A DNA stretch of 64,000 bases, taken from contig CAVSGP010000009.1 in assembly GCA_963727505.1 (NCBI GenBank), positions 128,001 through 192,000 on the forward strand, written 5' to 3'. Source of the stretch: an uncultured Trueperaceae bacterium (GTDB lineage Bacteria; Deinococcota; Deinococci; Deinococcales; Trueperaceae). The position numbers and the translations under genes were made by a program. How positions within the stretch are numbered: the first letter of the stretch is position 1; the number at the start of each line of letters is the position of its first letter. Under the pieces are notes generated by a model. The model had not been told where the DNA came from. It did not search any database and saw nothing but the letters and a program-made list of their open reading frames with translations. Positions 2,698-22,737 of the stretch are shown piece after piece.

Positions 2698-3234
2698 ATG
2701 AACAGACAGATCCGGCGCGAGCAGGCCAAGCAGGACAAGAAGGCTCAGAAGGAGAAGCAACGGAAGAGAGCCGCCCGCCGCGCTCGCGTCCAGAACGTAC
2801 GTCGTCGTCGCACCAGCGAACGCAAGGAGGGCGGAAAGCCCGCGGCCGGGAGCGCCAGCCCGAAGGCCTCGGGAGGCCAGCGCCAGCGCTTGCCCGGGCG
2901 CTTCTCCGGCGTCCTGATGATCGCGACGGTGTTCTTCATCGTGCTGCAGGCGGCCGTTCCTGCCAAGGACATGACCACGTTGAACAGCGTCACGGGCGCG
3001 GGATTCTTCGTGCTGTTCGGCTACTTCTCGCTGCTCTACCTGGAACGGCGCGGTGGCGGCCGGGCGCTGCTCATGACCCTGGTGTCGGGTGTGCTGCTGG
3101 TCGTGGGCGTGTCGATCGCCCGGCTGGTGGAACCTGTGCTCACCATGGACTGGCTGATGATGGGGCTGGCGGTGCCCGGGGTGGTGGCCGGCGCCTTCCT
3201 CGGTCGTCTGGTCTTCTACAACAGCCCCGCCTAG
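2698..3234 (+). CDS. Hypothetical membrane protein (basic N-terminus, ~4 TM helices)
   Basis: K/R-rich N-terminus followed by hydrophobic segments; TATGCT -10-like box 7 nt before the ATG. Confidence 0.75.
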   Translation: MNRQIRREQAKQDKKAQKEKQRKRAARRARVQNVRRRRTSERKEGGKPAAGSASPKASGGQRQRLPGRFSGVLMIATVFFIVLQAAVPAKDMTTLNSVTGAGFFVLFGYFSLLYLERRGGGRALLMTLVSGVLLVVGVSIARLVEPVLTMDWLMMGLAVPGVVAGAFLGRLVFYNSPA

Positions 3235-3241
3235 CAGCGCC

Positions 3242-3955: not shown

Positions 3956-4132
3956 CGGTGCGCGCCTCGGCCCGCCCGGGCCGTAGCCTGCCCCATCGGG
4001 CGACGATGCGATGGGAGCGTACAATGGGGGCCCGAAGCCTGTGCCGGCCCTCGGGCCGGTGCACGTATGCACCGCCTCGATGCAGTGCGGCGCCACGCGC
4101 TGGGCGCCACCTCGAGAGAGGACATCACGACG

Positions 4133-6859: not shown

Positions 6860-6880
6860 GGATCTGGAAAGGAAGCGCGC

Positions 6881-8215
6881 GTGGCAACGGAAGTCAAACT
6901 GCCCGAGGTGGGAGAAGGTATCGAGTCCGGTACCGTCGTGGGCGTGCTGGTCAGCGTCGGTGACGAGGTCAAGCGGGACCAGCCGTTGATCGAGTTGGAG
7001 ACCGACAAGGCCGTGGTCGAGGTGCCGTCGTCGGCGGACGGGGTCGTGCAATCGATCAACGTCAAGGAGAACCAGGAGGCGAGGGTCGGGCAGGTGATCG
7101 TCACGCTCGACGCCGCCGGGGCGGCCAAGCCTGCGGAAGCCGGGGCGCACGCATCGGAGGCGCCTGAGTCCGAGGCGCCCTCCTCGGAGGCGCCCCCCGA
7201 ACCGGCGCCGTCGGAAGCGCCCAGCAACGAACCCTCGGCGCCGTCGACTCCTCCCGCGGCACAGCCGGTCAAGCGGCAGCCGGCCCCGCGTTCGACCGCG
7301 ACCGCTTCCGACGGTTCCGGCCTGGTGCCGGCGGCCCCGTCGGTGCGACGCCTGGCGCGCGAGCTCGGGGTGGACATCCAGCAGGTCCAGGGCAGCGGGA
7401 TCCTGGGACGGATCTCTGCCACCGACGTGCGTACGGCTGCCGAGGGCGGCGCGCCTGCTGCGGCTGCGGTAGCGGCGCCGGTGCAGCTCCCCGACTTCAG
7501 CCGCTGGGGCGAAGTCGAGCGCAAGGCGATGAGCGGCATCCGCAAGGCAACGGTGCGGACCATGGCGGGTGCCTGGTCGACCGTACCGATGGTGACGCAG
7601 TTCGACAAGGCCGACAGCACCGAGTTCGAACGTCTGAGGCAGCGCTACAAGCCGCAGGCCGAAGCCATGGGCGCGAAACTGACGCCGACGGCCATGCTGC
7701 TCAAGGTGGTCGCGGCGGCGCTGAAGCGCTTCCCGGACTTCAACGCCAGCATCGACACCGCGAGCCAGGAGATCGTCTACAAGCGCTACGTCAACGTGGG
7801 CGTCGCTGTGGACACCGAGGCGGGCCTGCTGGTTCCGGTGATCAAGAACGCCGACGGTAAGAACGTGCTCGAGCTCGCGCAGGAGCTCGGTCAACTCGCC
7901 GAGAAGGCACGCAATCGCAAGCTCACCCCCGACGACATGCAGGGGGGCAACTTCAGCGTGTCGAACCTCGGCGGCATCGGCGGGACCGGCTTCACGCCGA
8001 TCGTCAACCCGCCCGAGGTAGCCATCCTGGGGGTGTCGCGCTCGGCGCACGAGCCGGTCTACAACCAGGGGACCGGGCAGTTCGACGCCCGGCTGATGAT
8101 GCCGTTGTCGGTCACCTACGACCACCGGCTCATCGACGGCGCTGCCGCGGCGCGGTTCCTGCGCTGGATCTGTACGGCCATCGAAGAGCCGTTCCTGATG
8201 GCGCTGGAGGGCTGA
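6881..8215 (+). CDS. aceF: Dihydrolipoamide acetyltransferase (PDH E2)
   Basis: Lipoyl motif ETDKA, PAAPSVRRLARE binding domain, DHRLIDGA catalytic motif; follows aceE. Confidence 0.93.
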   Translation: MATEVKLPEVGEGIESGTVVGVLVSVGDEVKRDQPLIELETDKAVVEVPSSADGVVQSINVKENQEARVGQVIVTLDAAGAAKPAEAGAHASEAPESEAPSSEAPPEPAPSEAPSNEPSAPSTPPAAQPVKRQPAPRSTATASDGSGLVPAAPSVRRLARELGVDIQQVQGSGILGRISATDVRTAAEGGAPAAAAVAAPVQLPDFSRWGEVERKAMSGIRKATVRTMAGAWSTVPMVTQFDKADSTEFERLRQRYKPQAEAMGAKLTPTAMLLKVVAAALKRFPDFNASIDTASQEIVYKRYVNVGVAVDTEAGLLVPVIKNADGKNVLELAQELGQLAEKARNRKLTPDDMQGGNFSVSNLGGIGGTGFTPIVNPPEVAILGVSRSAHEPVYNQGTGQFDARLMMPLSVTYDHRLIDGAAAARFLRWICTAIEEPFLMALEG

Positions 8216-8333
8216 GCCCGGCGATTCGGGAGGGCGCGCCGCCCGTCAGCGGCGCGCCGAAGCGCCCGAGGCACGTCTACAGCGCGCAAAACTCAACCGA
8301 CTCTCATGGGGCCGCGTGGTACGATAGCGCGGT

Positions 8334-9107
8334 ATGTCGGCTGTGATGGGTGCCCCGCAGGGTGCACGTGAGAGCCCCGGGCGGCTCGAGCTCCGGGCCA
8401 CGGGCCTCACCAAGCGTTACGGCGGCCGCAGGGTCGTCGACGGCGTGGACATCCGTCTCCGGCGCGGCGAGATCGTCGCGTTGCTGGGACCCAACGGCGC
8501 CGGCAAGACCACCAGCTTCTACATGATGGTCGGGTTCGTCCGGCCCAACGCGGGTTCCATCCGCCTGGGGGACCAGGACGTGACGCGCTGGCCGATGCAC
8601 CGCCGTGCCCGTCAGGGCCTCGGCTACCTGGCGCAGGAGCCCAGCGCCTTCCGGAAGCTGAGCGTCGAGGACAACCTGCTGGCCATCCTGGAGTTCCAGG
8701 GTCTGAGCCGGGGCGAGCAGGAGCGGCGTGCCCACGAGCTGCTCGACGAGTTCCACCTCCGGCCGCTGGCGCGTCGGCGTGCCAACACGCTCTCCGGCGG
8801 GGAGCGGCGGCGGCTCGAGATCGCGCGCAGCCTCACCATCGAGCCCGATTTCATCCTCCTCGACGAGCCTTTCACGGGCGTCGACCCCAAGTCCATCCGG
8901 GAGATCCAGGTGTTGATCGCGGAGCTGCGCGAGCGTCGCGGCCTGGGCGTCCTGCTCACCGACCACAGCGTGCGCGAGACTCTCGCCATCGCCGACCGCG
9001 TCTACCTGATGTTCGACGGTCGGGTTCGCTTCGACGGCACGCCCCAGGAATTCGCGAGCGACGCCGACGTCCGGACCTACTATCTCGGCGCCGACTTCCA
9101 GATCTGA
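8334..9107 (+). CDS. lptB: LptB-family ABC transporter ATPase
   Basis: [66 protein letters not shown]. Confidence 0.9.
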
Positions 9108-9165
9108 GGCGCGGGCGGACATGCGACGTCCTCCGGTGATCCCCAGCCCGAACCGGGGCGGCTGA

Positions 9166-10959
9166 ATGGCATACCTGGTGGGACTGGTGCTCCTGCTGGC
9201 GACGTTGGCCGGCATCATCGCCTACCTGGGCGACCGGCTCGGCACGGTGGTCGGGCGGCGGCGCCTCAGCCTGTTCGGCGCGCGACCGCGGCGCAGCGGC
9301 CAGATCGTCGGGGTCGTGGTAGGCATCGTCATCATGCTCACGACCCTGGCGGTGTTGGCGCTGGCCTTCCAGAACGCCACCCAGACGCTCGTCAACGCGC
9401 AACGCACCGCCGACGAGCTGCAGCGCCTGCGCGCGCAGGAGAAGGTCCAGCAGGACAAGGTCAACGAGTTGAACAATCAGCTCGACAGCCTCAAGAACGA
9501 GTTGGCCCAGGCGCAGCAGACGATCCAGGACGCCCAGACGCAGCGCGACGCCGCCCTGCAGGAGCGTGATCAGGCACGCCAGGAACGCGACAAGCTGCAG
9601 GCGCAGCGCGCGCAGCTCCAGGACCAGGTGGACCAGCTCAGTCAGCAGATGACGGACGTGAACGCGCAGCTCAGCCAGGCGCAGGCCAAGCTGACGAGCA
9701 CCCAGGCCGATCTGCAGACGGCCCAGCTGGCGCAGGCCGAGGCCGTAAAAGCGCGCGACCAGGCGCAGGCCGACGCTGCGCAGGCCAAGCAGGACGCGCA
9801 GCGGCTGCAGCAGGAGGTGGCCTCCGCGCGGAACCAGCTCGACGATGCCAACCAGCGCCTCGACGCGCTCCAAGGCAAGCTCTCCGACACGGAGAAGCGT
9901 TTGACCGACGCGGACCAGAAGCTCAAGGCGGCGCAGGCGGGGCTCGAGAAGGCGCAGACGGCCCAGGCGCAGGCCGAGTCGGCACGCGACCAAGCCTTGC
10001 AGCAGCGCGATCAGGCCCTGCAACAGGCCACCGCCCTGCAGCAGCAGACGAAGCAGCTCACCGGTCAGGTGGGGCAGCTCCAGGGTGAGGTCGCCGACCT
10101 GCAGCAGCAGCAAAAGCAACTCCAGGGGCAGGCCAGCGCCCTCAAGCAGCAGAACCAGGAGCTGCAGGCGCGGAACCAGGGCCTCTCGCAGGAGAACGCC
10201 CGCTTCGTGCAGCAGAACCAGCTCCTCAGCGAGCAGAAGGACCAGTTACAGCGGCAGATCGAGCAACAGAACCAGAAGGTGCAGGATCTGCAGGGGCAGC
10301 TCCAGACGCTCAACAGCCGCCTCGAGGAGCAGGCGCGCAAGCTCAACGAGGTCAGCGCCGAGTACAACCGGGCCACCAGCGGCGACGTGACGTTCCAGAA
10401 GGACGAACTGATCTACGCCGGGCCGATCTACGCGCAGGACCCCGCCACCATCAAGGACGAGCTGACCAAGTTCATCGCGTCGGCCACCACCTACGTGGCG
10501 CGCCGAGGGGTCGAGAAGCTTCGCGTGACGCCCGAGCAGTTCAACAGCCTGGTCGATGTCATCGCCCAGACGCCGGGATCCGACCTGGTGCGCCTCATCT
10601 CACCGCGCAACCAGTTCAGCTCCACCGTCGACGTCACCATCGAGGCCATCGAGAACACCAAGCTCTTCGACAAGGGGCAGCTCGTCGTGAGCCGGCAGAT
10701 CCATCTCGGCTCGGCCGATCTGCCCGCCAGCCAGGACGAGGTCCGTAACGCCCTGACGCAGCTCAAAGGCGACGCCGTGCGCAAGCTGCGGCGCGCCGGG
10801 CTGGACGAGATGCAGGTCCCCGACTTCGGCCCGGTCACCGACGACATCTTCACGAGCTTGCTGCTGCGCCTGCACGGCCCGGTCACCATCGGGCTGGTCG
10901 CCACCGACGACATCTACCGATCCGGTCCGGCGAAGCTGGAGCTGCAGGTCCTCTACTGA
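9166..10959 (+). CDS. DUF3084-like membrane-anchored coiled-coil protein
   Basis: IAYLGDRLGTVVGRRRLSLFGARPRR N-terminal signature, two TM helices, long Q-rich heptad region; follows lptB. Confidence 0.85.
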   Translation: MAYLVGLVLLLATLAGIIAYLGDRLGTVVGRRRLSLFGARPRRSGQIVGVVVGIVIMLTTLAVLALAFQNATQTLVNAQRTADELQRLRAQEKVQQDKVNELNNQLDSLKNELAQAQQTIQDAQTQRDAALQERDQARQERDKLQAQRAQLQDQVDQLSQQMTDVNAQLSQAQAKLTSTQADLQTAQLAQAEAVKARDQAQADAAQAKQDAQRLQQEVASARNQLDDANQRLDALQGKLSDTEKRLTDADQKLKAAQAGLEKAQTAQAQAESARDQALQQRDQALQQATALQQQTKQLTGQVGQLQGEVADLQQQQKQLQGQASALKQQNQELQARNQGLSQENARFVQQNQLLSEQKDQLQRQIEQQNQKVQDLQGQLQTLNSRLEEQARKLNEVSAEYNRATSGDVTFQKDELIYAGPIYAQDPATIKDELTKFIASATTYVARRGVEKLRVTPEQFNSLVDVIAQTPGSDLVRLISPRNQFSSTVDVTIEAIENTKLFDKGQLVVSRQIHLGSADLPASQDEVRNALTQLKGDAVRKLRRAGLDEMQVPDFGPVTDDIFTSLLLRLHGPVTIGLVATDDIYRSGPAKLELQVLY

Positions 10960-11021
10960 GCTACGGAGCTTCTGAGCGAAGGAGCTACGGCGCAACGGCG
11001 CCACGGAGCTACGGCGCGCGG
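10958..11021. repeat. Degenerate 8-bp tandem repeat (GAGCTACG-like x8) between convergent genes
   Basis: gagctacg gagcttct gagcgaag gagctacg gcgcaacg gcgccacg gagctacg gcgcgcgg; GAGCTACGG recurs at 10958, 10982 and 11006. Confidence 0.7.
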
Positions 11022-11395
11022 CCGGCGCGGGACCGCGCCACGAAGGCCACCTGCCGCCCGTCGGGGTCGCGCGCGGTGAAGGCGACGCCAGCGCCCCCTT
11101 CACCTGGCGGAACGTCGACCTCGACGCTCAGCGCACGCAGCCGGCGGACCAGGGCCGCCGGGTCGTCGCAGTGGAAGGTCAGGCGGAGATCGCGCTCCAC
11201 CCCCAGGGCGCCGTCGTGCTGGCGGAATTCCAGCGACGTGCCGCCGACGCGCACGACCAGCCGGCTCGTCTCCTCGACAGCGAGCGAGAGGCCGAGGTCG
11301 CGCACGTAGAAGTCTCGAGTGGCGGTCAGGTCCTGCGCCGCCAGGCTCATCACCAGGGCCGTCGGCGGTCTGGCGGAGGGCGCATCCGGACACAT
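11009..11395 (-). CDS. VOC/glyoxalase family protein
   Basis: DLTATRDFYVRDLGL ... LTFHCDD ... FTARDPDGRQV pattern. Confidence 0.8.
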   Translation of the reverse strand: MCPDAPSARPPTALVMSLAAQDLTATRDFYVRDLGLSLAVEETSRLVVRVGGTSLEFRQHDGALGVERDLRLTFHCDDPAALVRRLRALSVEVDVPPGEGGAGVAFTARDPDGRQVAFVARSRAGRAP

Positions 11396-11465
11396 GCCCC
11401 GTCCTACCACGGTGGGCGCGTCACGGTGCACCGCACTTGGCTGCGCGGTCTCGTAAGCTGGAGCC

Positions 11466-11858
11466 GTGGATGAACCGACGAGGATCCTGGTGGCCGATGA
11501 CGTCGAAGGGCAGAGACTCGTGCTCGACATGCTGCTCAGCGCCGACGGACACATCGTCGACACGGTGGAGGACGGGCGCGCCGCGCTCGACTACCTGAAG
11601 ACCACGACGCCGGACCTGGTGATCCTGGACGTCGCCATGCCCTTCATATCCGGCATCGACATCTGCCATCGCATGAAGCGCATCCCCCGCCTGAAGGACG
11701 TTCCTGTGATCATCCTGACGGCGCTCAAGGACGAGCGCACCCGCGACATGGCGCGTGTCGCTCGTGCCGATGCCATCGTGACCAAGCCGCTCGAAGGCAA
11801 GGACTTCCGGGCCGCGGTGCGCGATCTGCTGGCGGCCGGACGCTCCGCAGGAAGCTAG
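11466..11858 (+). CDS. Single-domain response regulator (CheY-like)
   Basis: ILVADD, PDLVILDVAMP, VIILTA, TKP. Confidence 0.92.
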   Translation: MDEPTRILVADDVEGQRLVLDMLLSADGHIVDTVEDGRAALDYLKTTTPDLVILDVAMPFISGIDICHRMKRIPRLKDVPVIILTALKDERTRDMARVARADAIVTKPLEGKDFRAAVRDLLAAGRSAGS

Positions 11859-11873
11859 CGGTCAACGCGCCCA

Positions 11874-12692
11874 TCATCCCTGACGCTGCCGCATCGCCTC
11901 GAACAGCAGCACGGCGCCCGCCACCCCCACGTTGAGGCTGTCCGCCACACGGGAGCGCATCGGGATGCGCACCTGCTGCTCGGCGGCGTCGAGCCAAACG
12001 GCGCCCAGCCCGGCGTGCTCCGACCCCAGCACGACGGCGACGCCGCCGCGGTAGTCGGCGTCCCAGTGGGCGCGCACGGCGTGGGGCGTGGAGGCGATCA
12101 CACGCAGGTCCGCGGCGCGCAGCCAGGCCAGCGCCTCGGCCGTTGCGGCGCTCGCCACCGGGAGGGCGAACACGCTGCCCATGCTGGCGCGGATCACGTT
12201 GGGGTTCCGAAGGTCGGTCCCCTGGCCGGTGACCAGCACCCCGTCGACCCCCGTGGCGTCGGCCGTTCTCAGCAGGGCGCCGACGTTGCCCGGCTTCTCG
12301 ATGCCGTCGAGCACGAGCACCAGCGGATCGGACGGGAGGGCCAGCTGCTCGAGCCCGCGCGCGGGCTCGAGCGCCACGAGGGCGACCCCGTCCGGGTGCT
12401 CGCGCAGGCTCAGGCGCTCGAAGGCATCGGGGGAGAGCTCGATCACCTCGGCGCCCCGTGCAGCAGCGGCCTCCCGTAGGGCTTCGGTCGCCTTGCGGTG
12501 GCGGGCCGGCCACAGCTCCGGGGCGACCAGGAGCCACACGAGCGTGATCCCCGCCTCCGTGGCGCGCTCCGCTTCGCGCAGTCCTTCGACGAGGGTCCGC
12601 CCTGTGCGGTCCCGCTCCCGCCGGGTCTTGAGGGCGGCCACCTCTTTCACCAGGGGGTTACGGGCGCTGTCGATGCGGCGGGCGGGCGACAT
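11874..12692 (-). CDS. TrmH/SpoU family RNA methyltransferase
   Basis: IDSARNP, LVEG, EKPGNVGALLRTADA, GSEHAGL, IPM..DSLNV; start trimmed to MSPARR. Confidence 0.92.
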   Translation of the reverse strand: MSPARRIDSARNPLVKEVAALKTRRERDRTGRTLVEGLREAERATEAGITLVWLLVAPELWPARHRKATEALREAAAARGAEVIELSPDAFERLSLREHPDGVALVALEPARGLEQLALPSDPLVLVLDGIEKPGNVGALLRTADATGVDGVLVTGQGTDLRNPNVIRASMGSVFALPVASAATAEALAWLRAADLRVIASTPHAVRAHWDADYRGGVAVVLGSEHAGLGAVWLDAAEQQVRIPMRSRVADSLNVGVAGAVLLFEAMRQRQG

Positions 12693-12765
12693 GCGGCATT
12701 GTAACGACGACGCCTCCTCGCCTTTCATGCGGGGAGGAGGGGGCTCCGGCCGGTAGACTCGCGTC

Positions 12766-13611
12766 ATGGAGTCGCTCATCGACGCCGGAACGCTGCTGCG
12801 CAGGCTCGACGACCCGGGCCTGCGCATCCTCGACGCACGCTTCGAGCTGCTGGATCCGCCCGCGGGCCGGCGCATGTACGGGGAGGGGCACGTGCCGGGC
12901 GCCGTGTTCGTGGACCTGGACGAGGATCTGGCGGCGCCCGCTGCGCGGCACGGCGGTCGGCACCCGCTGCCCGACATGGGTGCCTTCGCCCGCAAGCTCG
13001 GCGAGCGCGGGGTGGGCGACGACCACGAGGTCGTGGTCTACGACCAGGGCGGCACCATGTTCGCGGCGCGCGCCTGGTGGCTCCTGCGCTACGCGGGCCA
13101 CGACCGGGTGCGGGTCCTCGACGGCGGCTACCGAGCGTACCGGGAGGCGGGGGGAGCGGTCAGCCGCGAGGTCCCGTTGCACGACCGCGCGATGCTGTCG
13201 CTCCGCCTTCGGCAAGAGATGGTCGTCGACCGGGCGCGGTTGCGCCGGGCGCTCCATGACCCACAGTGGTGCATCCTCGACGTGCGCTCGCCGGAGCGCT
13301 ACCGAGGGGAGACAGAGCCGATCGATCCCAGGGCCGGGCATATCCCCTCGGCGCTCAACCGCCCTTACGAGCGCACGCTGACCGAGCGCGGGCGCTTCGC
13401 CGAGCCTCACGCGCTGAGGGAGCAGTTCGCGGTGGCCGCCGGCCGCTCCGAGGTGGTCGGTTACTGCGGGTCGGGGGTCAGTGCGGCGCACGCCATCCTC
13501 GCCATGGAGCTGGCCGGCATCCCCGGCGCCCGGCTGTACCCGGGATCGTGGAGCGACTGGTGCAGCTACGAGGACTTGCCCGTGGCGCTGGGTGACGAGG
13601 AGTCCGGCTAG
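12766..13611 (+). CDS. Tandem-rhodanese sulfurtransferase (SseA/MST-like)
   Basis: GHVPGA, GGRHPLP, AARAWW, GHIPSA, active loop CGSGVSA, LYPGSWSDW. Confidence 0.93.
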   Translation: MESLIDAGTLLRRLDDPGLRILDARFELLDPPAGRRMYGEGHVPGAVFVDLDEDLAAPAARHGGRHPLPDMGAFARKLGERGVGDDHEVVVYDQGGTMFAARAWWLLRYAGHDRVRVLDGGYRAYREAGGAVSREVPLHDRAMLSLRLRQEMVVDRARLRRALHDPQWCILDVRSPERYRGETEPIDPRAGHIPSALNRPYERTLTERGRFAEPHALREQFAVAAGRSEVVGYCGSGVSAAHAILAMELAGIPGARLYPGSWSDWCSYEDLPVALGDEESG

Positions 13612-13657
13612 GCCACGCCGGACAGGGTCCATGGGGGGCTAAGATGAGAGGCCACGG

Positions 13658-14620
13658 ATGACCGAGGTCGAGCACAGCGAGCGCTGGGACCGGATCTGGG
13701 CGGGTTTCTTCCGAAACCTACCGCACGGGGTGGTCGTGTTCCGGGCGGTGCGCAACGACGAGGGTCGGCTGCGCGACTTCGTGTGGGTGGACGTCAATCC
13801 GGTTGGCGCCGGCATCCTGCGCGTAGCCCGGACGGACCTGATCGGCCAGCGGCTGCGCAGCGTCTACCCCGACCACCTGGATCCGCGCCTGTTGTGGCGG
13901 CTGGCGTCGGCGCTGCACGGGCGCCGCCCGCGCGAGTTCGAGTACGCGGTCCCCACGCCGCCGTTCCGGCCGCAGCGACCCGGCGCCGGAGCACGGGATG
14001 CGGACGTCGCTGGTGGGGTCGAGGGCGACGCACCGCCCGCCTGGTGGTACGCGGTGACGGTGGTGCCGGCCGACGAGGATCACGTGGTGGTGCTGTTCCG
14101 CTCCATCACCGATTACAAGGACGTGCTGCGGCAGGCCGTCGAGTTGATGAACCACGACGACCTGACCGGGCTGGCCAACCGGCGCCACATGAAGTCGAGG
14201 TTCTGGGTGTGGCGCAAGCGGCGCGTGCGCATGGCGATCATCTACTTCGACCTCAACGGCTTCAAGACGGTGAACGACAGGCACGGGCACGAGGCCGGCG
14301 ATCAGGTGCTAGGGGTTATCGGGCAGCGTTTGAAGCAGAACGTGCGTCCCGGCGAGATGGTGGCACGCATCGGCGGAGACGAGTTCGCGGTCCTGCTGGG
14401 CGAAGCCGAGGTGGGCACCCTCGATCGCGTTGCAGAGCGCCTGATCCAGTCGGTGGAGGAGCCCATCCATCTCGCCGACTACACGGTGCAGCTCAGCGCC
14501 AGCGTGGGTGCCGCCCTCTACCCGGACGACGCCGAGTCCTTCGAAGCCCTTCTCGGTCGCGCCGACGAGCGCATGTACCAGCACAAGCGGGAGTACCGCG
14601 CCGCGCAGGGCCAGAGCTGA
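13658..14620 (+). CDS. PAS-like + GGDEF diguanylate cyclase
   Basis: HDDLTGLANR, DLNGFKTVNDRHGHEAGD, ARIGGDEF, ADERMY. Confidence 0.92.
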   Translation: MTEVEHSERWDRIWAGFFRNLPHGVVVFRAVRNDEGRLRDFVWVDVNPVGAGILRVARTDLIGQRLRSVYPDHLDPRLLWRLASALHGRRPREFEYAVPTPPFRPQRPGAGARDADVAGGVEGDAPPAWWYAVTVVPADEDHVVVLFRSITDYKDVLRQAVELMNHDDLTGLANRRHMKSRFWVWRKRRVRMAIIYFDLNGFKTVNDRHGHEAGDQVLGVIGQRLKQNVRPGEMVARIGGDEFAVLLGEAEVGTLDRVAERLIQSVEEPIHLADYTVQLSASVGAALYPDDAESFEALLGRADERMYQHKREYRAAQGQS

Positions 14621-14705
14621 TCCCTTCGGACCCTCACCGGGAGCTGGCGCCGCCCCGTCACCGTCGGGCCGGACGGGTTCCGAGGGCGATGCTATCCTCG
14701 GTGGC

Positions 14706-15638
14706 ATGAACATCGTCGTGATGGGAGCCGGCGCGGTCGGCGGCTACTTCGGTGGGCGCCTTGCCGAGGCCGGGCACCGGGTCACCCTGGTGGCGCGGGG
14801 AGCGCACCTGCGGGCTCTCCAGGAGAGCGGGCTTCGCCTGCGCAGCACGCTCGGGGACGCGCACGTGCAGCGTCTGGCGGCAGTGGAGGATCCGCGGGAC
14901 GCCGCACCGGACGTCCGCCCGGTGGACGTGGTGCTGTTCACGGTGAAGGCGCAGGACAGCGCGTCCGCCGCCGAGCGGATCGCGCCGCTCGTGAGCGCCG
15001 ACACCCGCGTGCTCACGCTGCAGAACGGCGTCGACGGGGTGGAGGTGCTCCGGCGGCGCTTCGGAGACGAGCGCGTCCTTGCAGGCGTCGCTTATATCGA
15101 GGCGCTGATCGGGGCGCCGGGCGAGATCGTCCACAAGAGCCCGTTCGCGCGCGTCGTGTTCGGCCCTCTCGTGGCGCCCGATCCCCATGCCGAAGAGCTC
15201 GCCGGCGCGTTCCGGGAGGCCGGCGTGGAGGCGACCCTGGAGGCCGACCCGATGGTCGCGGTGTGGCGCAAGTGGCTGCTCATCTGCGCGTTCAGCGGGC
15301 TGACCGCGCTGACGCGCAAGCCCATCGGGGAGATCGTGGAGCGACGCGAGACGCGCGAGCTCCTCAGGCGCGCCATGGAGGAGATCGCCGCCCTCGCCGC
15401 GGCGCGCGGAGTGGCGCTTCCCGACGACGCCGTCGACGGCGCCATGACGTTCGCGCGCAAGACGGCCGAACCCACCATGACCTCGTCGCTGGCGCAGGAC
15501 CTGGCCGCCGGCAAACACCTGGAGCTCGAAGCACTCAACGGCGCCGCGTCCCGCATGGGCCGCGAGCTCGGTGTGTCCACACCGGTCAACGACTTCGTCT
15601 ACGCCGCGCTGGTCCTGCACAGCCGAGGAGCGGCGTGA
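14706..15638 (+). CDS. panE: 2-dehydropantoate 2-reductase
   Basis: GAGAVGG, TVK, LQNG, WRK, SSLAQD, ELEALNG. Confidence 0.9.
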   Translation: MNIVVMGAGAVGGYFGGRLAEAGHRVTLVARGAHLRALQESGLRLRSTLGDAHVQRLAAVEDPRDAAPDVRPVDVVLFTVKAQDSASAAERIAPLVSADTRVLTLQNGVDGVEVLRRRFGDERVLAGVAYIEALIGAPGEIVHKSPFARVVFGPLVAPDPHAEELAGAFREAGVEATLEADPMVAVWRKWLLICAFSGLTALTRKPIGEIVERRETRELLRRAMEEIAALAAARGVALPDDAVDGAMTFARKTAEPTMTSSLAQDLAAGKHLELEALNGAASRMGRELGVSTPVNDFVYAALVLHSRGAA

Positions 15639-16204
15639 GCGACGTCCGGTGCGCCTGGGCCGGGAACGACCCACGGATGCGCCGCTATCACGACGAGGAG
15701 TGGGGCGTTCCCGTCCACGACGACCGCCGCTGGTTCGAGATGCTGGTGCTGGAGAGCTTCCAGGCGGGTCTGAGCTGGCGCACCATCCTCCACAAGCGCG
15801 ACGCCTTCCGCGACGCCTTTGCCGCCTTCGACCCAGCCAGGGTCGCTCGCTTCACGGAGGCCGACGTGACCCGCCTGCTCGCGGACCCCGGCATCGTGCG
15901 CAACAGCGCCAAGGTCCGTGCGGCCGTATCCAACGCCCAGGCCTTCCTGCGCGTTCAGGAGGCGTTCGGGAGCTTCGACGCCTTCGCCTGGGACGCGGTC
16001 GGAGGGATCCCGGTCGTCGGCCGTCGCGAGACGCAGGCCGACGTGCCCGCCGTCACGGAGGCCTCCGTGACGCTGGCCCGGGACCTGAAGCAGCGCGGTT
16101 TCCGGTTTGTTGGGCCCACCGTGGCCTACGCCTTCATGCAGGCGACCGGCCTGGTCAACGACCACACGCTGGACTGTTTCCGCTACGCCGAGCTGGTGCC
16201 TTGA
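15635..16204 (+). CDS. tag: DNA-3-methyladenine glycosylase I
   Basis: RCAWA, YHDEEWG, LESFQAGLSW, GFRFVGPT, NDHTLDC; GTGA overlap with panE. Confidence 0.95.
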   Translation: MSDVRCAWAGNDPRMRRYHDEEWGVPVHDDRRWFEMLVLESFQAGLSWRTILHKRDAFRDAFAAFDPARVARFTEADVTRLLADPGIVRNSAKVRAAVSNAQAFLRVQEAFGSFDAFAWDAVGGIPVVGRRETQADVPAVTEASVTLARDLKQRGFRFVGPTVAYAFMQATGLVNDHTLDCFRYAELVP

Positions 16205-16250
16205 GCGGCGCATCGCGCGGGCCGCGGCCGCTGCTATCATGGCCGCGTCC

Positions 16251-16628
16251 ATGAGCGACGACGCCCGCCGCGGTTACACCATGCTGGCCCGGCTGTTCCT
16301 GGTCGTGGGCGGGGCCTTCGCCTTGCTGGCCGTGCTGCAGTTGGCGGGTGCATTCCGCCTGTTCAACGGCAACCCTCTGGGTGTGGCGCTGATCGTGTTG
16401 ATCATCGGAGTGCTGCTCGAGTGGACGGTGCGCACCGCGCCTCCCGCGGCCCCTGCGCCCGAGGACGCGGTCGCCGAGGACGCGGTCGCCGAGGCGGACG
16501 AGGGCGCGAGCGACGATGTGCAGCCTGACGGGTGGGACGCCGGGGGGCGGGAGAGTGGCGAGCGGCGGGCCGACGGGCCGACGCTCGACGGTCGAGGCCT
16601 CGACCCACCCGCGCGCGGCCGCCACTAG
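16251..16628 (+). CDS. Hypothetical small membrane protein (2 TM, acidic tail)
   Basis: Two hydrophobic helices; tail contains a 15-bp duplication (EDAVA x2). Confidence 0.6.
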   Translation: MSDDARRGYTMLARLFLVVGGAFALLAVLQLAGAFRLFNGNPLGVALIVLIIGVLLEWTVRTAPPAAPAPEDAVAEDAVAEADEGASDDVQPDGWDAGGRESGERRADGPTLDGRGLDPPARGRH

Positions 16629-16655
16629 CCTCGGTCGCGCGTGGGCCCATCCGGC

Positions 16656-17147
16656 TCAGGGCCGGCTCAGGGTGAACGTCAGGGTGTGGGTCGTGGCGGT
16701 GGCGGCGGGTGAGTCCACGCTGAACGTCAGGGGGATGTCCTTCCAGCCTCCGGTGGGCTGCTGCGTAGCGAACGTCGCCGTGTGTTCGAGGTCGTAGCAG
16801 CCGCTCTTGGTGGTGCTCATGGTCGCGTCCGTGGTGCAGACCTGCAGGGTCGGGGCGGCGGGGCTCTCGTCCTCGATCGACAGGATCCATTGGGAGTTCG
16901 CGAAGACCTTGACCGTCACGTTTCCCGGGTCCACCAGCGTCCCGTCGAAGTTGCCGTCGACGGTGCCGCCCACGGTCACGTCGAGGTTCTGCTGGGTGGT
17001 CGCCGTGTCCTGATCGATGCTCAGGCGCAACACGGTGGGGATGTGCACGGTGACGGTGTTGCGGGCGGTGGCCTGAGCTCCGGCCACGCCGGAGAGCAGC
17101 ATCCAGCCGAACAGCAACGTCAGAGCGGTCGTGCCAGTGCGGCGCAT
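16656..17147 (-). CDS. Secreted beta-rich protein, possibly a donor-strand pilin-like subunit
   Basis: Sec signal ending VAGA|Q, alternating N-terminal strand NTVTVHIP, C-terminal strand TLTFTLSRP, one Cys pair; AGGGGG RBS. Confidence 0.8.
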   Translation of the reverse strand: MRRTGTTALTLLFGWMLLSGVAGAQATARNTVTVHIPTVLRLSIDQDTATTQQNLDVTVGGTVDGNFDGTLVDPGNVTVKVFANSQWILSIEDESPAAPTLQVCTTDATMSTTKSGCYDLEHTATFATQQPTGGWKDIPLTFSVDSPAATATTHTLTFTLSRP

Positions 17148-17232
17148 CCGTCGTCCCCCTTCGTCGACGGATGCAACCGGGGGAGCGCTGGTGCCCGCGA
17201 GCACGGGCCGTCCGGCCCACACATGCGGTACC

Positions 17233-17312
17233 AGGTCCGGCCGGTTGCATCACTGGCTCCCCGAGTCCCTTGATGCCCACATTGGGAGTCTCGGCTCATA
17301 GCCTCCGAACCC
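17233..17312 (-). ncRNA. c-di-GMP-II riboswitch aptamer, downstream copy
   Basis: GGGUUCGG-A-GGC-UAU-GA-G-CCGAG..UGGGCAUCA..CUCGG-G-GA-GCC-AG-UGAUGCAACCGG-CCGGACCU: P1, kink-turn, pseudoknot GCAUCA/UGAUGC and conserved UGGGC and GCAACCG motifs. Confidence 0.88.
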
Positions 17313-17340
17313 TTCGGTCGAGGGGCCGTGCAGCGCATCC

Positions 17341-17377
17341 AAATGAGAAAACGCCACATCGACCTTACGATGGACGC
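17341..17377 (-). terminator. Putative riboswitch-controlled intrinsic terminator
   Basis: Minus strand GCGUCCAUCG-UAAGGU-CGAUG(U)GGCGU followed by UUUCUCAUUU. Confidence 0.6.
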
Positions 17378-17424
17378 TTGACGGGCGGGTCACGAGGGTA
17401 CGGCACGATGGTGCCGCCGTAGAC

Positions 17425-17498
17425 GTGAGGCCGGTTGCGCTACTAGCTCCACTCGATCCAAGCGCCCAGATGCAGATCGAGCTTCAACGCTTCCTCAC
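17425..17498 (-). ncRNA. c-di-GMP-II riboswitch aptamer, upstream copy
   Basis: GUGAGG-A-AGC-GUU-GA-AG-CUCGAUC..UGGGCGCUU..GAUCGAG-UG-GA-GCU-AG-UAGCGCAACCGG-CCUCAC: P1, kink-turn and pseudoknot GCGCU/AGCGC. Confidence 0.92.
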
Positions 17499-17502
17499 CG
17501 GC

Positions 17503-17534
17503 AGCATAGCGTTCCGGGCTTACGGAACTCTTAC
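17503..17534 (-). promoter_or_regulatory. Promoter of riboswitch leader: -10 TATGCT plus GTAAG direct repeat (11-bp period)
   Basis: Minus strand tGTAAGagttccGTAAGcccggaacgcTATGCTgccgGTGAGG. Confidence 0.5.
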
Positions 17535-17719
17535 ACCGACCGGGCTCGGCCCGTTCGTCGCGCCCGGGAAGGGCCCGAGGACGGGATCCAGCGCTTCACC
17601 CTAGCGCCCCGTATGCGTTGCTTCCCGACGCGCGTCACGCCCGCAACCCAGGCCTGGGGCCTCCGGGGCCGTGAACACGCGCGTTGCGAGGCTCCGCGAC
17701 GGGCGGCTACAGTAGCGGG

Positions 17720-18499
17720 ATGCGAGTCTCCATCGAGCTGGTTCCCCGCAACGCCGACGCGCTCGACGACCAGCTGCGCGAGATGAGAGGCGCCTTCCCC
17801 GGCGTGGACACCGTCAACCTCCCGGACATCGTGCGCTTCGACCTACGAAGCTGGGAGGGTTGTGACGCGGTACGCCGCCATGTGCCGCACGCCATTCCGC
17901 ACCTGCGGGCGATCGACGTCGACCTCGACGCACCGCTACGGGCGGGCCCCTGGCTCGGAGAGGGGGGCCTCGACGAGGTGCTGGTGATCTCGGGGGATGC
18001 GCCTAGCGACATGAGCAGACCGGTGTACGGCTCGAGCCCCGTCGAGGTCATCCGCAAGGTCAAGCGCGAACACCCCGGGGTGAGGGTGTACGCCGCTCTC
18101 GACCCCTACCGGCAGGGCTTCGTGCGAGAGCGGGGCTACGCGCTGCAGAAGCTCGAAGCGGGCGCCGACGGCCTGTTCACGCAGCCCTTCTTCGACGTTC
18201 GCCTGCTCGAGGTCTGGGCAGACCTGATGACCGACGTACCCGTGTTCTGGGGCTTCACCAGCGTGGTGGGGGAGCGCTCGGCGCGTTACTGGAAGACCCG
18301 TAACGGGGTGGTGTTCCCCCGCGATTTCGAGCCCAGCCTCGCCTGGAGCCGTCGGCTCGCCCGTGAGGCGCTGGCCTTCGCCCGTGAGCGGGACGCGAGC
18401 CTCTACTTCATGCCCATCCGGGTCGGTCCGCGCGCCTACCTCGAGGGGATCCTCGAGGGGCCGGACGCGCCGATCGAGGGGGCATCTCGGCAGGGGTGA
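17720..18499 (+). CDS. metF: Methylenetetrahydrofolate reductase
   Basis: SIELVPR, IPHLRAID, VLVISGD, KLEAGADGLFTQPFFD; near metH. Confidence 0.88.
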   Translation: MRVSIELVPRNADALDDQLREMRGAFPGVDTVNLPDIVRFDLRSWEGCDAVRRHVPHAIPHLRAIDVDLDAPLRAGPWLGEGGLDEVLVISGDAPSDMSRPVYGSSPVEVIRKVKREHPGVRVYAALDPYRQGFVRERGYALQKLEAGADGLFTQPFFDVRLLEVWADLMTDVPVFWGFTSVVGERSARYWKTRNGVVFPRDFEPSLAWSRRLAREALAFARERDASLYFMPIRVGPRAYLEGILEGPDAPIEGASRQG

Positions 18500-19047
18500 A
18501 GCAGTCGCTGGCAGCCAGCCTCGCCGGCCGCCTGCGCGAGCTTCGCCGTGGCCTGACGACCCTCCCGGACGTGCGCGGCTGGGGGGAGAGCGCGCTGTGG
18601 GCGCTGCTGTTCACCATGGCGGTCGCGCCGGTCGCGATGGCGGGCGGGCTGATCTCGCTCCACCCCGGTGGCGGCGCGGCGACCCTGCGCACGGTGCTGC
18701 TTCCCTTCCTGACGCCCGCGTTGCTCGAGGAGGGACTGTTCCGCGGCCTGCTGCTGCCGCACCCCGCGACCCCCGGTGTGACGCGGGTACGCCGCGCGGC
18801 CTGGTGGGCGGGGTCGCTGCTGGCCTACCTGGCCGCCCATCCGCTGGCTGCGGCCCTGGTGCGGCCCGCCGCCCGCGGCGTGTTCGATGCCCCTGACTTC
18901 CTGGTCGCTGCCGCGTTGCTCGGCGTCACGGCCACGGCGCTCTACCAGCGCACGGGCTCGCTGTGGCCGGGGGTGCTGCTCCACGGCGCGGTCGTCGCGA
19001 CGTGGCTGAACCTGGGAGGGGCCGCGCTGCTGATCCCGGCGGGTTGA
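18496..19047 (+). CDS. CPBP (Abi/CAAX) family intramembrane protease
   Basis: EEGLFRG, AAHP, YQRTGSLW..VLLH motifs; hydrophobic. Confidence 0.85.
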   Translation: MKQSLAASLAGRLRELRRGLTTLPDVRGWGESALWALLFTMAVAPVAMAGGLISLHPGGGAATLRTVLLPFLTPALLEEGLFRGLLLPHPATPGVTRVRRAAWWAGSLLAYLAAHPLAAALVRPAARGVFDAPDFLVAAALLGVTATALYQRTGSLWPGVLLHGAVVATWLNLGGAALLIPAG

Positions 19048-19054
19048 GGCGCGC

Positions 19055-22737
<3,683 letters not shown>

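What the first reader, a model, noticed from the sequence alone, without database searches (positions are those of the whole stretch)
17144..17508. Tandem c-di-GMP-II riboswitches wired as a two-level (transcription + translation) OFF switch
Seen: two complete aptamers on the minus strand (17425-17498 and 17233-17312). Each has P1, a kink-turn, UGGGC and GCAACCG motifs, and the pseudoknot covaries between copies (GCGCU/AGCGC vs GCAUC/GAUGC). After aptamer 1 lies a hairpin plus U-rich tract (17341-17377). Its 5' arm CAAGCGUCCA (17371-17380) can instead pair 10/10, with one G-U, to the aptamer pseudoknot strand UGGGCGCUUG (17459-17468). After aptamer 2, CCGGUUGCAUC (17170-17180) is the perfect complement of that aptamer's 3' end GAUGCAACCGG. 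It also overlaps the arm GCAUCCGUCG, which pairs with CGACGGAUGC containing the AUG, leaving the RBS in the loop. Known: c-di-GMP-II riboswitches occur in Clostridia and Deinococcota. Inference: ligand binding frees both repressive hairpins, giving a sharpened double-OFF response through two different expression platforms. I am not aware of this architecture being described for this class.
Basis: partly seen in the sequence, partly recalled or inferred. Interest (0 to 1): 0.85.

Follow-up and report, generated by a model that had tools for sequence, protein, structure and literature searches.

The report
Tandem c-di-GMP-II riboswitches, predicted double OFF
Two genuine c-di-GMP-sensing RNA switches sit one after the other in front of a small secreted-protein gene of a Trueperaceae bacterium and probably shut it off at transcription and then at translation, which is a well-supported but not fundamentally new arrangement.

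Summary
The whole 380-nt leader is conserved in all 10 genomes searched of the genus and in two further genera. In the genus, aptamer 1 is followed by a hairpin with a T-enriched tail. Its 5' arm is complementary to the aptamer's pseudoknot loop strand, and folding favours that anti-terminator unless the aptamer strands are blocked. Aptamer 2 is followed by a hairpin holding the AUG, with the Shine-Dalgarno in the loop. That hairpin recurs with compensatory changes across Trueperaceae. Both platforms read as OFF, but in silico only: neither switching helix covaries, and equilibrium folding keeps this locus's AUG paired in both states. Novelty is overstated. Tandem c-di-GMP-II doublets and transcription-plus-translation "bi-mechanism" tandems are in print (PMC9481103), as is enrichment of tandem c-di-GMP riboswitches in Deinococcota (PMC12452182). 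The OFF polarity, the platform details and a promoter motif shared with type IV pilus genes did not turn up in my searches.

The parts
17519..17534 (-). Direct repeat GTAAG-N6-GTAAG, the upstream half of a promoter-like motif
   Evidence: All ten GTAAG repeat positions are invariant in the 12 orthologous leaders. There are 9 exact sites in the genome against 0 for the reversed control. Other sites precede a pilT-like gene, two type IV pilin genes and a prepilin-like gene.
17503..17508 (-). -10-like box TATGCT (pattern TAnnCT in orthologues), 10 nt after the repeat
   Evidence: T27, A28, C31 and T32 are invariant in alignment A1. The same spacing to a TAnnnT box is seen at several of the other repeat sites (read). 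The start site was not determined.
17420..17503 (-). c-di-GMP-II aptamer 1 (pseudoknot GCGCU 17465-17461 with AGCGC 17441-17437)
   Evidence: RF01786, 73.5 bits, E 1.2e-14. P1, P2 and P3 show compensatory changes among orthologues.
17459..17468 (-). Strand A: P3-loop/pseudoknot strand UGGGCGCUUG, which can instead pair with the terminator's 5' arm
   Evidence: 10 pairs with 17380-17371, duplex -15.7 kcal/mol. 96.6% of cells are paired in 12 orthologues with no covariation. Ensemble probability is 0.78-0.99 in 10 of 10 genus orthologues before the terminator's 3' arm is made.
17390..17428 (-). Helix X (UCACG 17428-24 with CGUGA 17394-90) enclosing hairpin H (17417-17400). X competes with P1 of aptamer 1.
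   Evidence: 90% of cells are paired and 2 of 5 pairs show compensatory changes. X is in the RNAalifold consensus and in the ligand-free MFE.
17341..17380 (-). Terminator-like hairpin (17379-17349, one bulged U) plus U-rich tail UUUUCUCAUUU (17351-17341). Its 5' arm contains strand C, CAAGCGUCCA (17380-17371).
   Evidence: -14.2 kcal/mol, z -2.6. 12 pairs, 85% of cells paired, one pair UA<->CG in 3 sequences. The tail is 29-57% T in the 10 genus orthologues, against 13-18% for the leaders. It is one of only two such T-tracts in the window.
17305..17317 (-). Small hairpin E (CCGAA/UUCGG) that ties up the 5' strand of aptamer 2's P1
   Evidence: E is in the RNAalifold consensus. An equivalent, stronger hairpin is in the MFE of 18 of 18 loci examined from other genera, with arms that change together.
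17230..17315 (-). c-di-GMP-II aptamer 2 (pseudoknot GCAUC 17276-17272 with GAUGC 17251-17247)
   Evidence: RF01786, 61.5 bits, E 2.8e-11. Nearly invariant among the 12 orthologues.
17188..17234 (-). Spacer hairpin that brings the aptamer's 3' strand next to its complement
   Evidence: Helices 11 and 12 are 89-93% paired, with 4 pairs showing compensatory changes. The hairpin is in the consensus fold.
17170..17180 (-). Strand C': CCGGUUGCAUC, the exact complement of aptamer 2's 3' strand GAUGCAACCGG (17251-17241). It overlaps the next hairpin by GCAUC.
   Evidence: Duplex -19.1 kcal/mol. 96.2% of cells paired in 12 orthologues, no covariation. The full 11 pairs are in the RNAalifold consensus. 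GGUU, which lies outside the AUG hairpin, is invariant or nearly so in 31 loci.
17144..17174 (-). Start-codon-sequestering hairpin GCAUCCGUCG/CGACGGAUGC, with the Shine-Dalgarno AAGGGGGA (17161-17154) in the loop and the AUG at 17147-17145 in the 3' arm
   Evidence: -21.3 kcal/mol with flanks, z -3.4. Across 27 distinct sequences, 86.8% of cells are paired against 29-40% when slid, and 6 of 11 pairs show compensatory changes. The 16S 3' end reads CACCUCCUUUC.
16656..17147 (-). Regulated gene: 163-aa protein with a signal peptide and a predicted beta-sandwich fold, of no known family. It is monocistronic, with a convergent gene downstream.
   Evidence: ORF list. No Pfam or NCBIfam family. 16 homologues, all unnamed. 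AlphaFold2 pLDDT 82.5, all-beta. No PDB match at E <= 0.001.

Best explanation
This is the 5' leader of a small secreted-protein gene in a Trueperaceae (Deinococcota) bacterium. It carries two complete c-di-GMP-II riboswitches in series, each with its own expression platform, and both are wired as OFF switches. This is a 'bi-mechanism' tandem.

**Riboswitch 1 (transcription)**
- Without ligand, the P3-loop strand UGGGCGCUUG pairs with CAAGCGUCCA about 80 nt downstream. At the same time the 3' strand of P1 pairs with CGUGA (helix X). This holds the 5' arm of the terminator, so RNA polymerase reads through.
- With c-di-GMP, the loop strand is locked in the aptamer pseudoknot. The hairpin at 17379-17349 forms in front of UUUUCUCAUUU, and transcription stops near 17341-17345.

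**Riboswitch 2 (translation)**
- Without ligand, the aptamer's 3' strand GAUGCAACCGG pairs with CCGGUUGCAUC. The spacer hairpin and the small hairpin E on P1's 5' strand help this. The pairing takes GCAUC away from the start-codon hairpin and lowers the cost of exposing the AUG.
- With c-di-GMP, that strand is held in the aptamer. The 10-pair hairpin then closes over the AUG and initiation is blocked.

**Net effect:** rising c-di-GMP first stops new transcripts and then silences those already made, giving a steeper response than one switch.

**Shown:** both aptamers, all the complementarities, conservation of the whole leader, and covariation in the aptamer helices, helix X, the terminator stem (one pair) and the AUG hairpin.

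**Inferred:** ligand binding, termination, the direction of both switches, and that both aptamers lie on one transcript.
For: **Aptamers.** Two RF01786 hits lie above the gathering score. The family rings in Deinococcus radiodurans among 14 control genomes, and in 49 of 61 genomes searched (G000 and 60 relatives) at E <= 0.001.

**Conservation.** The leader is found full-length in 10 of 10 genomes searched of the genus, nearly so (positions 11-381) in one further genus, and over positions 25-290 by BLAST in a second, out of 128 family genomes searched. All 12 were aligned from promoter motif to start codon (alignment A1, 83% mean column identity).

**Overall structure.** In the bound-state model 92.7% of 1125 cells pair, against 35-40% with partners slid, and 17 pairs show compensatory change.

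**Platform 1**
- The unconstrained MFE of aptamer 1 plus terminator (-71.2 kcal/mol) contains the loop-strand/terminator-arm helix and helix X. With the aptamer helices enforced, the terminator forms.
- In 10 of 10 genus orthologues that helix has probability 0.78-0.99 before the 3' arm exists.
- At full length and free, terminator probability is <= 0.07 in 7 of 10. With the two aptamer strands blocked it is >= 0.98 in 7 of 10.
- Helix X has 2 compensatory pairs.
- The T-rich tail is 29-57% T against 13-18% for the leaders, and is one of two such tracts in 64 kb. The other ends a canonical terminator after the 16S gene.

**Platform 2**
- The AUG hairpin is supported by 6 of 11 covarying pairs in 27 distinct sequences.
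- The RNAalifold consensus, which has no ligand term, forms the full 11-pair anti-sequestor.
- The computed cost of opening the start region is higher with the aptamer strand blocked: +2.3 kcal/mol here, median +2.8 in 31 loci, >= 2 in 21 of 31.

**One transcript (weak).** A 448-nt metatranscriptome contig of a 90-95% identical relative spans 17109-17553, covering both aptamers and the start codon.

**Concept in print.** Bi-mechanism tandems are described in PMC9481103.
Against: - Nothing was measured: no ligand binding, no 3' end, no start site.
- The two switching helices never covary; 7 of 10 and 8 of 11 pairs are invariant. One strand of each is conserved anyway as part of the aptamer, so only conservation of the partner strand argues for them.
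- For this locus the equilibrium ensemble leaves the AUG paired in both states (P unpaired 0.00-0.02). Clear opening (a difference above 0.2) appears in only 6 of 32 loci, and 6 of 31 loci show no difference in opening cost.
- With only the aptamer strands blocked, terminator probability here is 0.56, and it is 0.41-0.49 in two orthologues. One orthologue (G005) forms the terminator even when free (0.91).
- The U-tract is poor in most orthologues. The hairpin is not conserved in the two other genera that keep the leader.
- The generic scan did not call the terminator.
- The characterised class II riboswitches of C. difficile are ON switches (PMC11477304, passages read).
- The -10-like box ends only 4-5 nt before P1, so a start site there could clip P1. 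The RNA contigs run upstream to 17553. They come from relatives, and may include DNA carried over into the RNA libraries.
Confidence: 0.55

Rival explanations
1. Translation-only tandem with a structural relay. On this reading the hairpin after aptamer 1 is not an efficient terminator. It belongs to a chain of mutually exclusive helices: loop strand with AAGCGCCCA, then that motif with its downstream partner, then the hairpin on aptamer 2's P1 5' strand. Through this chain the state of aptamer 1 gates folding of aptamer 2, so the two aptamers act cooperatively on one translational platform.
For: - An AAG[CU][GA][CU]CC motif lies 13-30 nt before aptamer 2 in 18 of 20 loci from other genera (0.66 expected from shuffles). 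Those loci have short spacers and no terminator-like hairpin.
- A hairpin tying up aptamer 2's P1 5' strand is in the MFE of 18 of 18 of these loci, with co-varying arms.
- In at least one locus (L045) the motif's partner overlaps that hairpin's 5' arm (read).
- The U-tract is degenerate in most orthologues.
Against: - In this locus and its genus the motif's partner strand lies about 30 nt from hairpin E and does not overlap it.
- The overlap needed for a relay is weak or absent in other loci I inspected, such as L046 and L033.
- The T-rich tail here is exceptional for this genome.
- I made no alignment-based test of the relay helices.
Confidence: 0.18
2. Only riboswitch 1 regulates, by termination. 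The AUG hairpin is a constitutive damper of translation, and aptamer 2 adds little or acts in another way, for example on mRNA stability.
For: Equilibrium folding keeps the AUG paired whether or not the aptamer strand is available (P unpaired 0.00-0.02). The competing helices share only 5 nt, and the opening cost is high in both states (13.2 against 15.5 kcal/mol).
Against: - GGUU, which extends the complement to the aptamer beyond the AUG hairpin, is invariant or nearly so in 31 loci.
- The consensus fold forms the full anti-sequestor.
- The same aptamer-2-plus-AUG-hairpin module stands in loci where Rfam finds no first aptamer (6 of 20), so it should be able to regulate on its own.
- A gene whose AUG is locked in a hairpin of about -21 kcal/mol needs some way to open it.
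Confidence: 0.12
3. ON switches, as for the characterised class II riboswitches of C. difficile: c-di-GMP would induce the gene.
For: [quoted passage not shown] The promoter motif here is shared with type IV pilus genes.
Against: The terminator does not overlap the aptamer. The only aptamer segment complementary to it is the pseudoknot loop strand, which ligand binding removes. No calculation gave more terminator or more AUG pairing in the free state than in the blocked state.
Confidence: 0.05
4. A two-input gate: the two aptamers, which differ in their pseudoknots, bind different ligands.
For: The pseudoknot sequences differ (GCGCU against GCAUC). Three of the 12 orthologues have GCACCCGG instead of GCAACCGG in aptamer 1. 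Rfam holds variant families in the same clan (notes that lower-scoring clan matches were left out).
Against: Both copies score best as plain c-di-GMP-II and above its gathering score. The pseudoknot change is a clean compensatory swap.
Confidence: 0.05

Closest known systems
Tandem c-di-GMP-II riboswitches (59 doublets, 9 triplets) reported by Sherlock et al. 2022, RNA Biol (PMC9481103; passages read)
   Same: Two complete class II aptamers in one leader with no ORF between them, expected to sharpen the response to one ligand.
   Different: Those are mostly upstream of a COG4932 surface-anchor gene in Paraclostridium and relatives, and are listed as pseudo-cooperative without platform detail. 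This one is in Trueperaceae, upstream of a small secreted protein of unknown family, with mixed platforms and predicted OFF polarity. I could not read that paper's supplementary lists, so Deinococcota examples may be among them.
Bi-mechanism tandems: SAM-II/SAM-V and SAM-II doublets (PMC9481103; passages read)
   Same: The first riboswitch precedes an intrinsic terminator and the second controls translation initiation. Both sense the same ligand and both turn expression off.
   Different: A different ligand and aptamer class. Here both aptamers are of one class, and the second platform hides the start codon rather than the Shine-Dalgarno, which sits in the hairpin loop.
C. difficile class II c-di-GMP riboswitches (Cdi2 series; review PMC11477304, passages read)
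   Same: The same aptamer family, and a link to surface or pilus-related genes.
   Different: Those are single and act as transcriptional ON switches (one works through a group I ribozyme). These are tandem and read as OFF.
Triple-tandem c-di-GMP-I riboswitch Bc3-5 of Bacillus thuringiensis (PMC4759541; search listing and abstract only)
   Same: Several complete c-di-GMP riboswitches in series in one 5' UTR.
   Different: Class I (GEMM) aptamers in a Firmicute. I did not read its mechanism beyond the abstract.

Membership tests
c-di-GMP-II riboswitch aptamer (Rfam RF01786) | Covariance-model score at or above the curated gathering score (53.5 bits) | tested here: met
   73.5 and 61.5 bits, both full length 1-84.
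c-di-GMP-II riboswitch aptamer (Rfam RF01786) | P1, P2 and P3 helices maintained among relatives | tested here: met
   Aptamer 1: P1 86%, P2 100% and P3 99% of cells paired, with 1, 1 and 4 compensatory pairs. Aptamer 2: 98-100% paired but almost invariant.
c-di-GMP-II riboswitch aptamer (Rfam RF01786) | Pseudoknot between the P3 loop and the 3' segment | tested here: met
   5 of 5 pairs in each copy. GCGCU/AGCGC and GCAUC/GAUGC are a compensatory swap between the copies. That the family has this pseudoknot is my recollection of the published structure; no call shows it.
c-di-GMP-II riboswitch aptamer (Rfam RF01786) | Selective binding of c-di-GMP | not testable with these tools
   Needs in-line probing or calorimetry.
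Tandem same-ligand riboswitches (pseudo-cooperative or bi-mechanism, as defined in PMC9481103) | Two complete aptamers in one leader with no intervening ORF | tested here: met
   The aptamers are 104 nt apart, and the only ORFs between or over them are short overlapping frames with no support. The arrangement is conserved in 12 genomes.
Tandem same-ligand riboswitches (pseudo-cooperative or bi-mechanism, as defined in PMC9481103) | The first riboswitch has its own intrinsic terminator | tested here: inconclusive
   A hairpin plus U-rich tail is present and conserved in the genus, and folding supports a ligand-dependent choice. The generic scan does not call it, the tails are degenerate in orthologues, and no 3' end was measured.
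Tandem same-ligand riboswitches (pseudo-cooperative or bi-mechanism, as defined in PMC9481103) | The second riboswitch controls ribosome access | tested here: inconclusive
   The AUG hairpin has strong covariation support and the anti-sequestor is in the consensus fold. Equilibrium folding of this locus, however, shows the AUG paired in both states, and the opening cost differs by only 2.3 kcal/mol.
Tandem same-ligand riboswitches (pseudo-cooperative or bi-mechanism, as defined in PMC9481103) | Both aptamers and the ORF lie on one transcript | tested here: inconclusive
   One RNA-library contig of a relative spans 17109-17553. Contigs cannot show ends, and DNA carry-over cannot be excluded. 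No promoter-like motif was seen between the aptamers.

The most novel reading that the evidence does not exclude
In Trueperaceae the two class II aptamers may not be independent. They could be coupled through a relay of mutually exclusive helices. Aptamer 1's pseudoknot loop strand pairs with a conserved AAGCGCCCA-like motif. That motif pairs with a downstream partner, and the partner or its neighbour forms the hairpin that blocks P1 of aptamer 2. Binding at aptamer 1 would then license folding of aptamer 2. That would be true allosteric cooperativity between two complete riboswitches. In the genus of this window the middle helix would have been turned into a terminator.
Probability: 0.12. Interest if true: 0.7.

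Novelty: new member of a known kind. Interest (0 to 1): 0.4.

Why it matters
It gives a clean, phylogenetically supported example of a second-messenger riboswitch pair that would act at two levels. It lies in a phylum (Deinococcota) where c-di-GMP signalling through RNA has not, as far as my searches show, been studied.

The predicted OFF polarity is the opposite of the characterised class II switches. The shared promoter motif ties the regulated gene to type IV pilus genes. Together these suggest a testable link between c-di-GMP and pilus-associated surface proteins in this lineage.

The start-codon hairpin module, whose 5' arm copies the aptamer's own pseudoknot loop strand and whose 3' arm copies the pseudoknot's 3' strand, recurs in many Trueperaceae leaders. 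It could serve as a compact translational OFF platform for engineering.

None of this changes how riboswitches are understood. It extends known designs to another class and clade.

Tried and rejected
- **Generic terminator/promoter scan of 16500-18200.** It found nothing. Its rules allow no bulge, so it says little about this hairpin.
- **Whole-leader MFE.** It gave a long-range rod pairing the two aptamer regions with each other. I set it aside as not relevant to co-transcriptional folding.
- **Function of the regulated protein.**
  - Pfam and NCBIfam gave no family.
  - The ESM Atlas gave only unnamed clusters, with weak leads to SCPU and WxL.
  - Foldseek against the PDB gave no match at E <= 0.001. 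The best rows (PliG, Ena2A fibres, the C-terminal domain of C. perfringens enterotoxin, CUB domains) are generic beta-sandwiches at TM 0.3-0.4.
  - I draw no function from these.
- **Public RNA runs.** Six metatranscriptomes hold only 4-7% of the sampled words. The four I laid are contigs of relatives at 85-95% identity, so they cannot show starts, ends or levels. Uncovered parts mean nothing.
- **Loop-strand/spacer duplex energies against shuffles.** They are clear in the 12 orthologues (-16 to -20.5 kcal/mol, z -1.2 to -4.2) but weak or erratic elsewhere. Part of that is because my regular expression cut some spacers short. I rely on the motif count instead.
- **Anti-Shine-Dalgarno pairing UCCCCC/GGGGGA.** Only 74% of cells pair, so I dropped it as a main element.
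- **Relay hypothesis.** I inspected it by eye only, and it remains inconclusive.
- **Supplementary files.** Those of PMC9481103 could not be read. Those of PMC12452182 list Truepera radiovictrix among the genomes used, but two term searches ('Trad', 'c-di-GMP-II c-di-GMP-II') found no locus rows.
- **Earlier notes of this scan.** None exist for this genome.
- **A script of mine failed on an assertion.** I corrected it.
Full report
**What is there**

On the minus strand, Rfam's c-di-GMP-II model (RF01786, gathering score 53.5) matches twice at full length. One match is at 17503-17420 (73.5 bits, E 1.2e-14) and the other at 17315-17230 (61.5 bits, E 2.8e-11).

- The pseudoknot strands are GCGCU/AGCGC in copy 1 and GCAUC/GAUGC in copy 2.
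- UGGGCGCUUG (17468-17459) faces CAAGCGUCCA (17380-17371).
- A bulged 12-pair hairpin at 17379-17349 is followed by UUUUCUCAUUU.
- CCGGUUGCAUC (17180-17170) is the exact complement of the 3' strand of aptamer 2.
- The hairpin GCAUCCGUCG/CGACGGAUGC (17174-17144) holds the AUG (17147-17145) in its 3' arm and AAGGGGGA in its loop.

The ORF from that AUG to 16656 encodes a 163-aa protein with a signal peptide. The gene downstream converges on it, so it is monocistronic.

**Is it more than chance?**

The covariance-model E-values answer that for the aptamers. The terminator-like hairpin folds at -14.2 kcal/mol (z -2.6; 3 of 200 shuffles as good). The AUG hairpin with its flanks folds at -21.3 kcal/mol (0 of 200).

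The window is 70% G+C. It holds only two 11-mers with 8 or more T on their strand: this one, and the tail of a textbook terminator (11-pair stem plus U7) just after the 16S rRNA gene. So the organism does use hairpin-plus-U terminators, and such tracts are rare. A scan of 1-20000 found 2 terminator-like sites against 5.0 expected from shuffles. The generic scan missed the hairpin here; its rules allow no bulge.

**Context in the genome and the clade**

The window's genome has 10 RF01786 matches at E <= 0.001, 8 of them above the cut-off. They include three tandem pairs, spaced 190, 188 and 160 nt. The family was found in 49 of 61 genomes searched (G000 and 60 relatives). Records of relatives are titled uncultured Trueperaceae or Deinococci.

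BLAST of the 381-nt leader over 128 genomes of the family gave these results:
- Full-length matches in all 10 genomes searched of the genus.
- A near-full-length match (positions 11-381) in one other genus.
- A match over positions 25-290 in a second other genus.

I aligned all 12 from the promoter-like motif to just past the AUG (A1, 407 columns, 83% mean column identity).

I also fetched 20 loci from other genera that carry an aptamer of the second (GCAUC) type. Of these, 14 have a second RF01786 hit upstream at E <= 0.001. The other 6 show an aptamer-1-like sequence that Rfam does not call.

**Platform 1**

On A1 the bound-state model pairs 92.7% of 1125 cells, against 35-40% with partners slid. 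The terminator stem is 85% paired, with one pair changing UA to CG in three sequences. It is not kept in the two other genera.

The helix between the loop strand and the terminator's 5' arm is 96.6% paired, but 7 of its 10 pairs never vary and none shows a compensatory change. What supports it is conservation of the downstream strand, because the loop strand is conserved as part of the aptamer anyway.

A second alternative helix, X, pairs the 3' strand of P1 with CGUGA downstream. It is 90% paired with 2 compensatory pairs, and it is in the RNAalifold consensus. This is direct comparative evidence for a conformer that excludes P1.

Folding agrees with a switch:
- The free MFE of aptamer 1 through the U-tract (-71.2 kcal/mol) contains the anti-terminator helix and X.
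- Enforcing the aptamer helices gives the terminator.
- Across the 10 genus orthologues, the anti-terminator has probability 0.78-0.99 before the 3' arm is made.
- Free full-length terminator probability is <= 0.07 in 7 of 10. The other three are 0.39, 0.40 and 0.91.
- With the two aptamer strands blocked it is >= 0.98 in 7 of 10. The other three are 0.41, 0.49 and, for this locus, 0.56.

The tails after the stem are 29-57% T in the genus, against 13-18% for the leaders as a whole. That is enriched, but mostly poor as U-tracts; this locus and G004 have the best.

**Platform 2**

The AUG hairpin recurs well beyond the orthologues. A regular expression found it in 31 of 34 loci examined. L032 has it with one changed base, L050 has a variant and L049 lacks it. 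On the alignment of those 31 (27 distinct), 86.8% of cells pair against 29-40% when slid, and 6 of 11 pairs show compensatory changes.

GGUU, which extends the complement to the aptamer's AACC but lies outside that hairpin, is invariant or nearly so. The anti-sequestor is 96.2% paired in A1 without covariation. All 11 of its pairs are in the RNAalifold consensus, together with the spacer hairpin and a small hairpin (E) on P1's 5' strand.

Against a large effect:
- The two rival helices share only GCAUC.
- For this locus the equilibrium ensemble leaves the AUG paired whether or not the aptamer strand is blocked (P unpaired 0.00-0.02).
- Only 6 of 32 loci show a difference above 0.2.

The cost of opening the start region is nevertheless higher in the blocked state: 13.2 against 15.5 kcal/mol here, a median difference of +2.8 over 31 loci, >= 2 in 21 and <= 0.5 in 6.

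I infer that co-transcriptional order matters. The complement meets the aptamer strand about 20 nt before the AUG strand exists. I could not simulate that.

**Direction**

No calculation gave more terminator or more AUG pairing without the ligand mimic than with it. The only aptamer segments complementary to the platforms are the strands that ligand binding takes away. Both switches therefore read as OFF. The characterised class II riboswitches of C. difficile are ON switches (PMC11477304, passages read), so the polarity here is unusual for the class but not for riboswitches in general.

**One transcript?**

No promoter-like motif lies between the aptamers. Metatranscriptome contigs of relatives at 90-95% identity span 17109-17553 (448 nt) and 17205-17553. 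That fits read-through RNA, but contigs cannot show ends and DNA carry-over is possible.

Upstream, GTAAG-N6-GTAAG followed 10 nt later by TAnnCT is invariant in the orthologues. The start site is unknown. A start just after the box would leave a short P1.

**The regulated gene and its company**

The protein has no Pfam or NCBIfam family, 16 unnamed homologues, a confident all-beta model (pLDDT 82.5) and no PDB match at E <= 0.001.

The GTAAG repeat occurs 9 times in the genome, against 0 for the reversed control. Other sites precede a pilT-like ATPase gene, two type IV pilin genes and a prepilin-like gene. The gene thus seems to share a promoter type with pilus genes. A GGDEF-PAS gene lies 2.5 kb away.

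**What is known**

- PMC9481103 (passages read) reports 59 doublets and 9 triplets of c-di-GMP-II, mostly in Paraclostridium upstream of a surface-anchor gene. It lists them as pseudo-cooperative. It defines bi-mechanism tandems (terminator first, translation second) for SAM-II/SAM-V and for some SAM-II doublets.
- PMC12452182 (passages read) finds tandem c-di-GMP riboswitches enriched in Deinococcota. Its genome list includes Truepera radiovictrix.
- Five full-text searches found no paper describing mixed platforms or OFF polarity for class II, or riboswitches of Trueperaceae. The supplements of PMC9481103 could not be read, so such examples may be listed there.

**Verdict**

This is a real, conserved tandem c-di-GMP-II riboswitch.

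It is a new member of a known kind, not a new architecture. It is worth a bench test because of the strong comparative support, the unusual polarity and the pilus link.

The boldest reading still open is that in this family the two aptamers are coupled by a relay of alternative helices. I give that about 0.12.

Noticed in passing
window 17503-17534 (-); own genome C4:126372, C4:126383, C4:563183, C5:78284, C5:236587, C9:601040, C9:737513, C9:738398: A promoter-like motif, GTAAG-N6-GTAAG followed about 10-11 nt later by TAnnnT, occurs 9 times in the genome (0 for the reversed control). It precedes a pilT-like gene, two type IV pilin genes and a prepilin-like gene as well as the riboswitch gene. 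This suggests one regulon or sigma/activator site.
   Followed up: partly
L031-L049 (18 loci from other Trueperaceae genera); window 17305-17317: Directly 5' of the second-type aptamer, a hairpin pairs the 5' strand of its P1 with upstream sequence. It is in the MFE of 18 of 18 loci examined (L037 and L050 were left out because they lack the AAGCGCCC-like motif used to set the segment). The arms change together, for example CGAACG/CGUUCG and GGACGCC/GGUGUCC.
   Followed up: partly
L032, L033, L034, L038, L039, L042: Six loci where Rfam calls only the second aptamer still carry an aptamer-1-like sequence upstream (UGGGCGCUUGG ... GGAGCGACCCCGCGA) and the AAGCGCCC motif. These may be decayed or variant first aptamers.
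   Followed up: no
L035, L036, L044 (and L001 in the own genome, C15:12024): In some loci a U-run follows the 3' strand of aptamer P1 directly (for example GGUCGAGUUCUUUUUUGU). The ligand-stabilised P1 itself might then act as the terminator stem.
   Followed up: no
own genome C4:785209-785293 (L006/L057): A single c-di-GMP-II riboswitch with a TTAAG variant of the promoter motif precedes a signal-peptide gene. The family's conserved VHIP..V.LRL stretch lies in a different frame from the start and from the following conserved part. This could be a pseudogene or assembly errors.
   Followed up: partly
own genome C2:272031-272277 and C4:708550-708821 (+710074): There are two more tandem pairs in the same genome. 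The C2 pair has the same AUG-hairpin module but no terminator-like hairpin between the aptamers. The C4 pair and a third single copy precede paralogous genes with a different platform.
   Followed up: partly
window 30465-30497 (+): A canonical intrinsic terminator (11-pair stem plus U7) lies 75 nt after the 16S rRNA gene. No 23S rRNA or spacer tRNA was called downstream in the window, so the 16S gene appears unlinked from the 23S gene.
   Followed up: partly
window 13658-14620 (+): A PAS-GGDEF (diguanylate cyclase) gene lies 2.5 kb from the riboswitch gene.
   Followed up: no
alignment A1, column 101 (window 17435): Three of the 12 orthologues (G003, G007, G008) read GCACCCGG instead of the family's conserved GCAACCGG in aptamer 1. 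The X1 and X2 RNA contigs show the same change at 17435.
   Followed up: no
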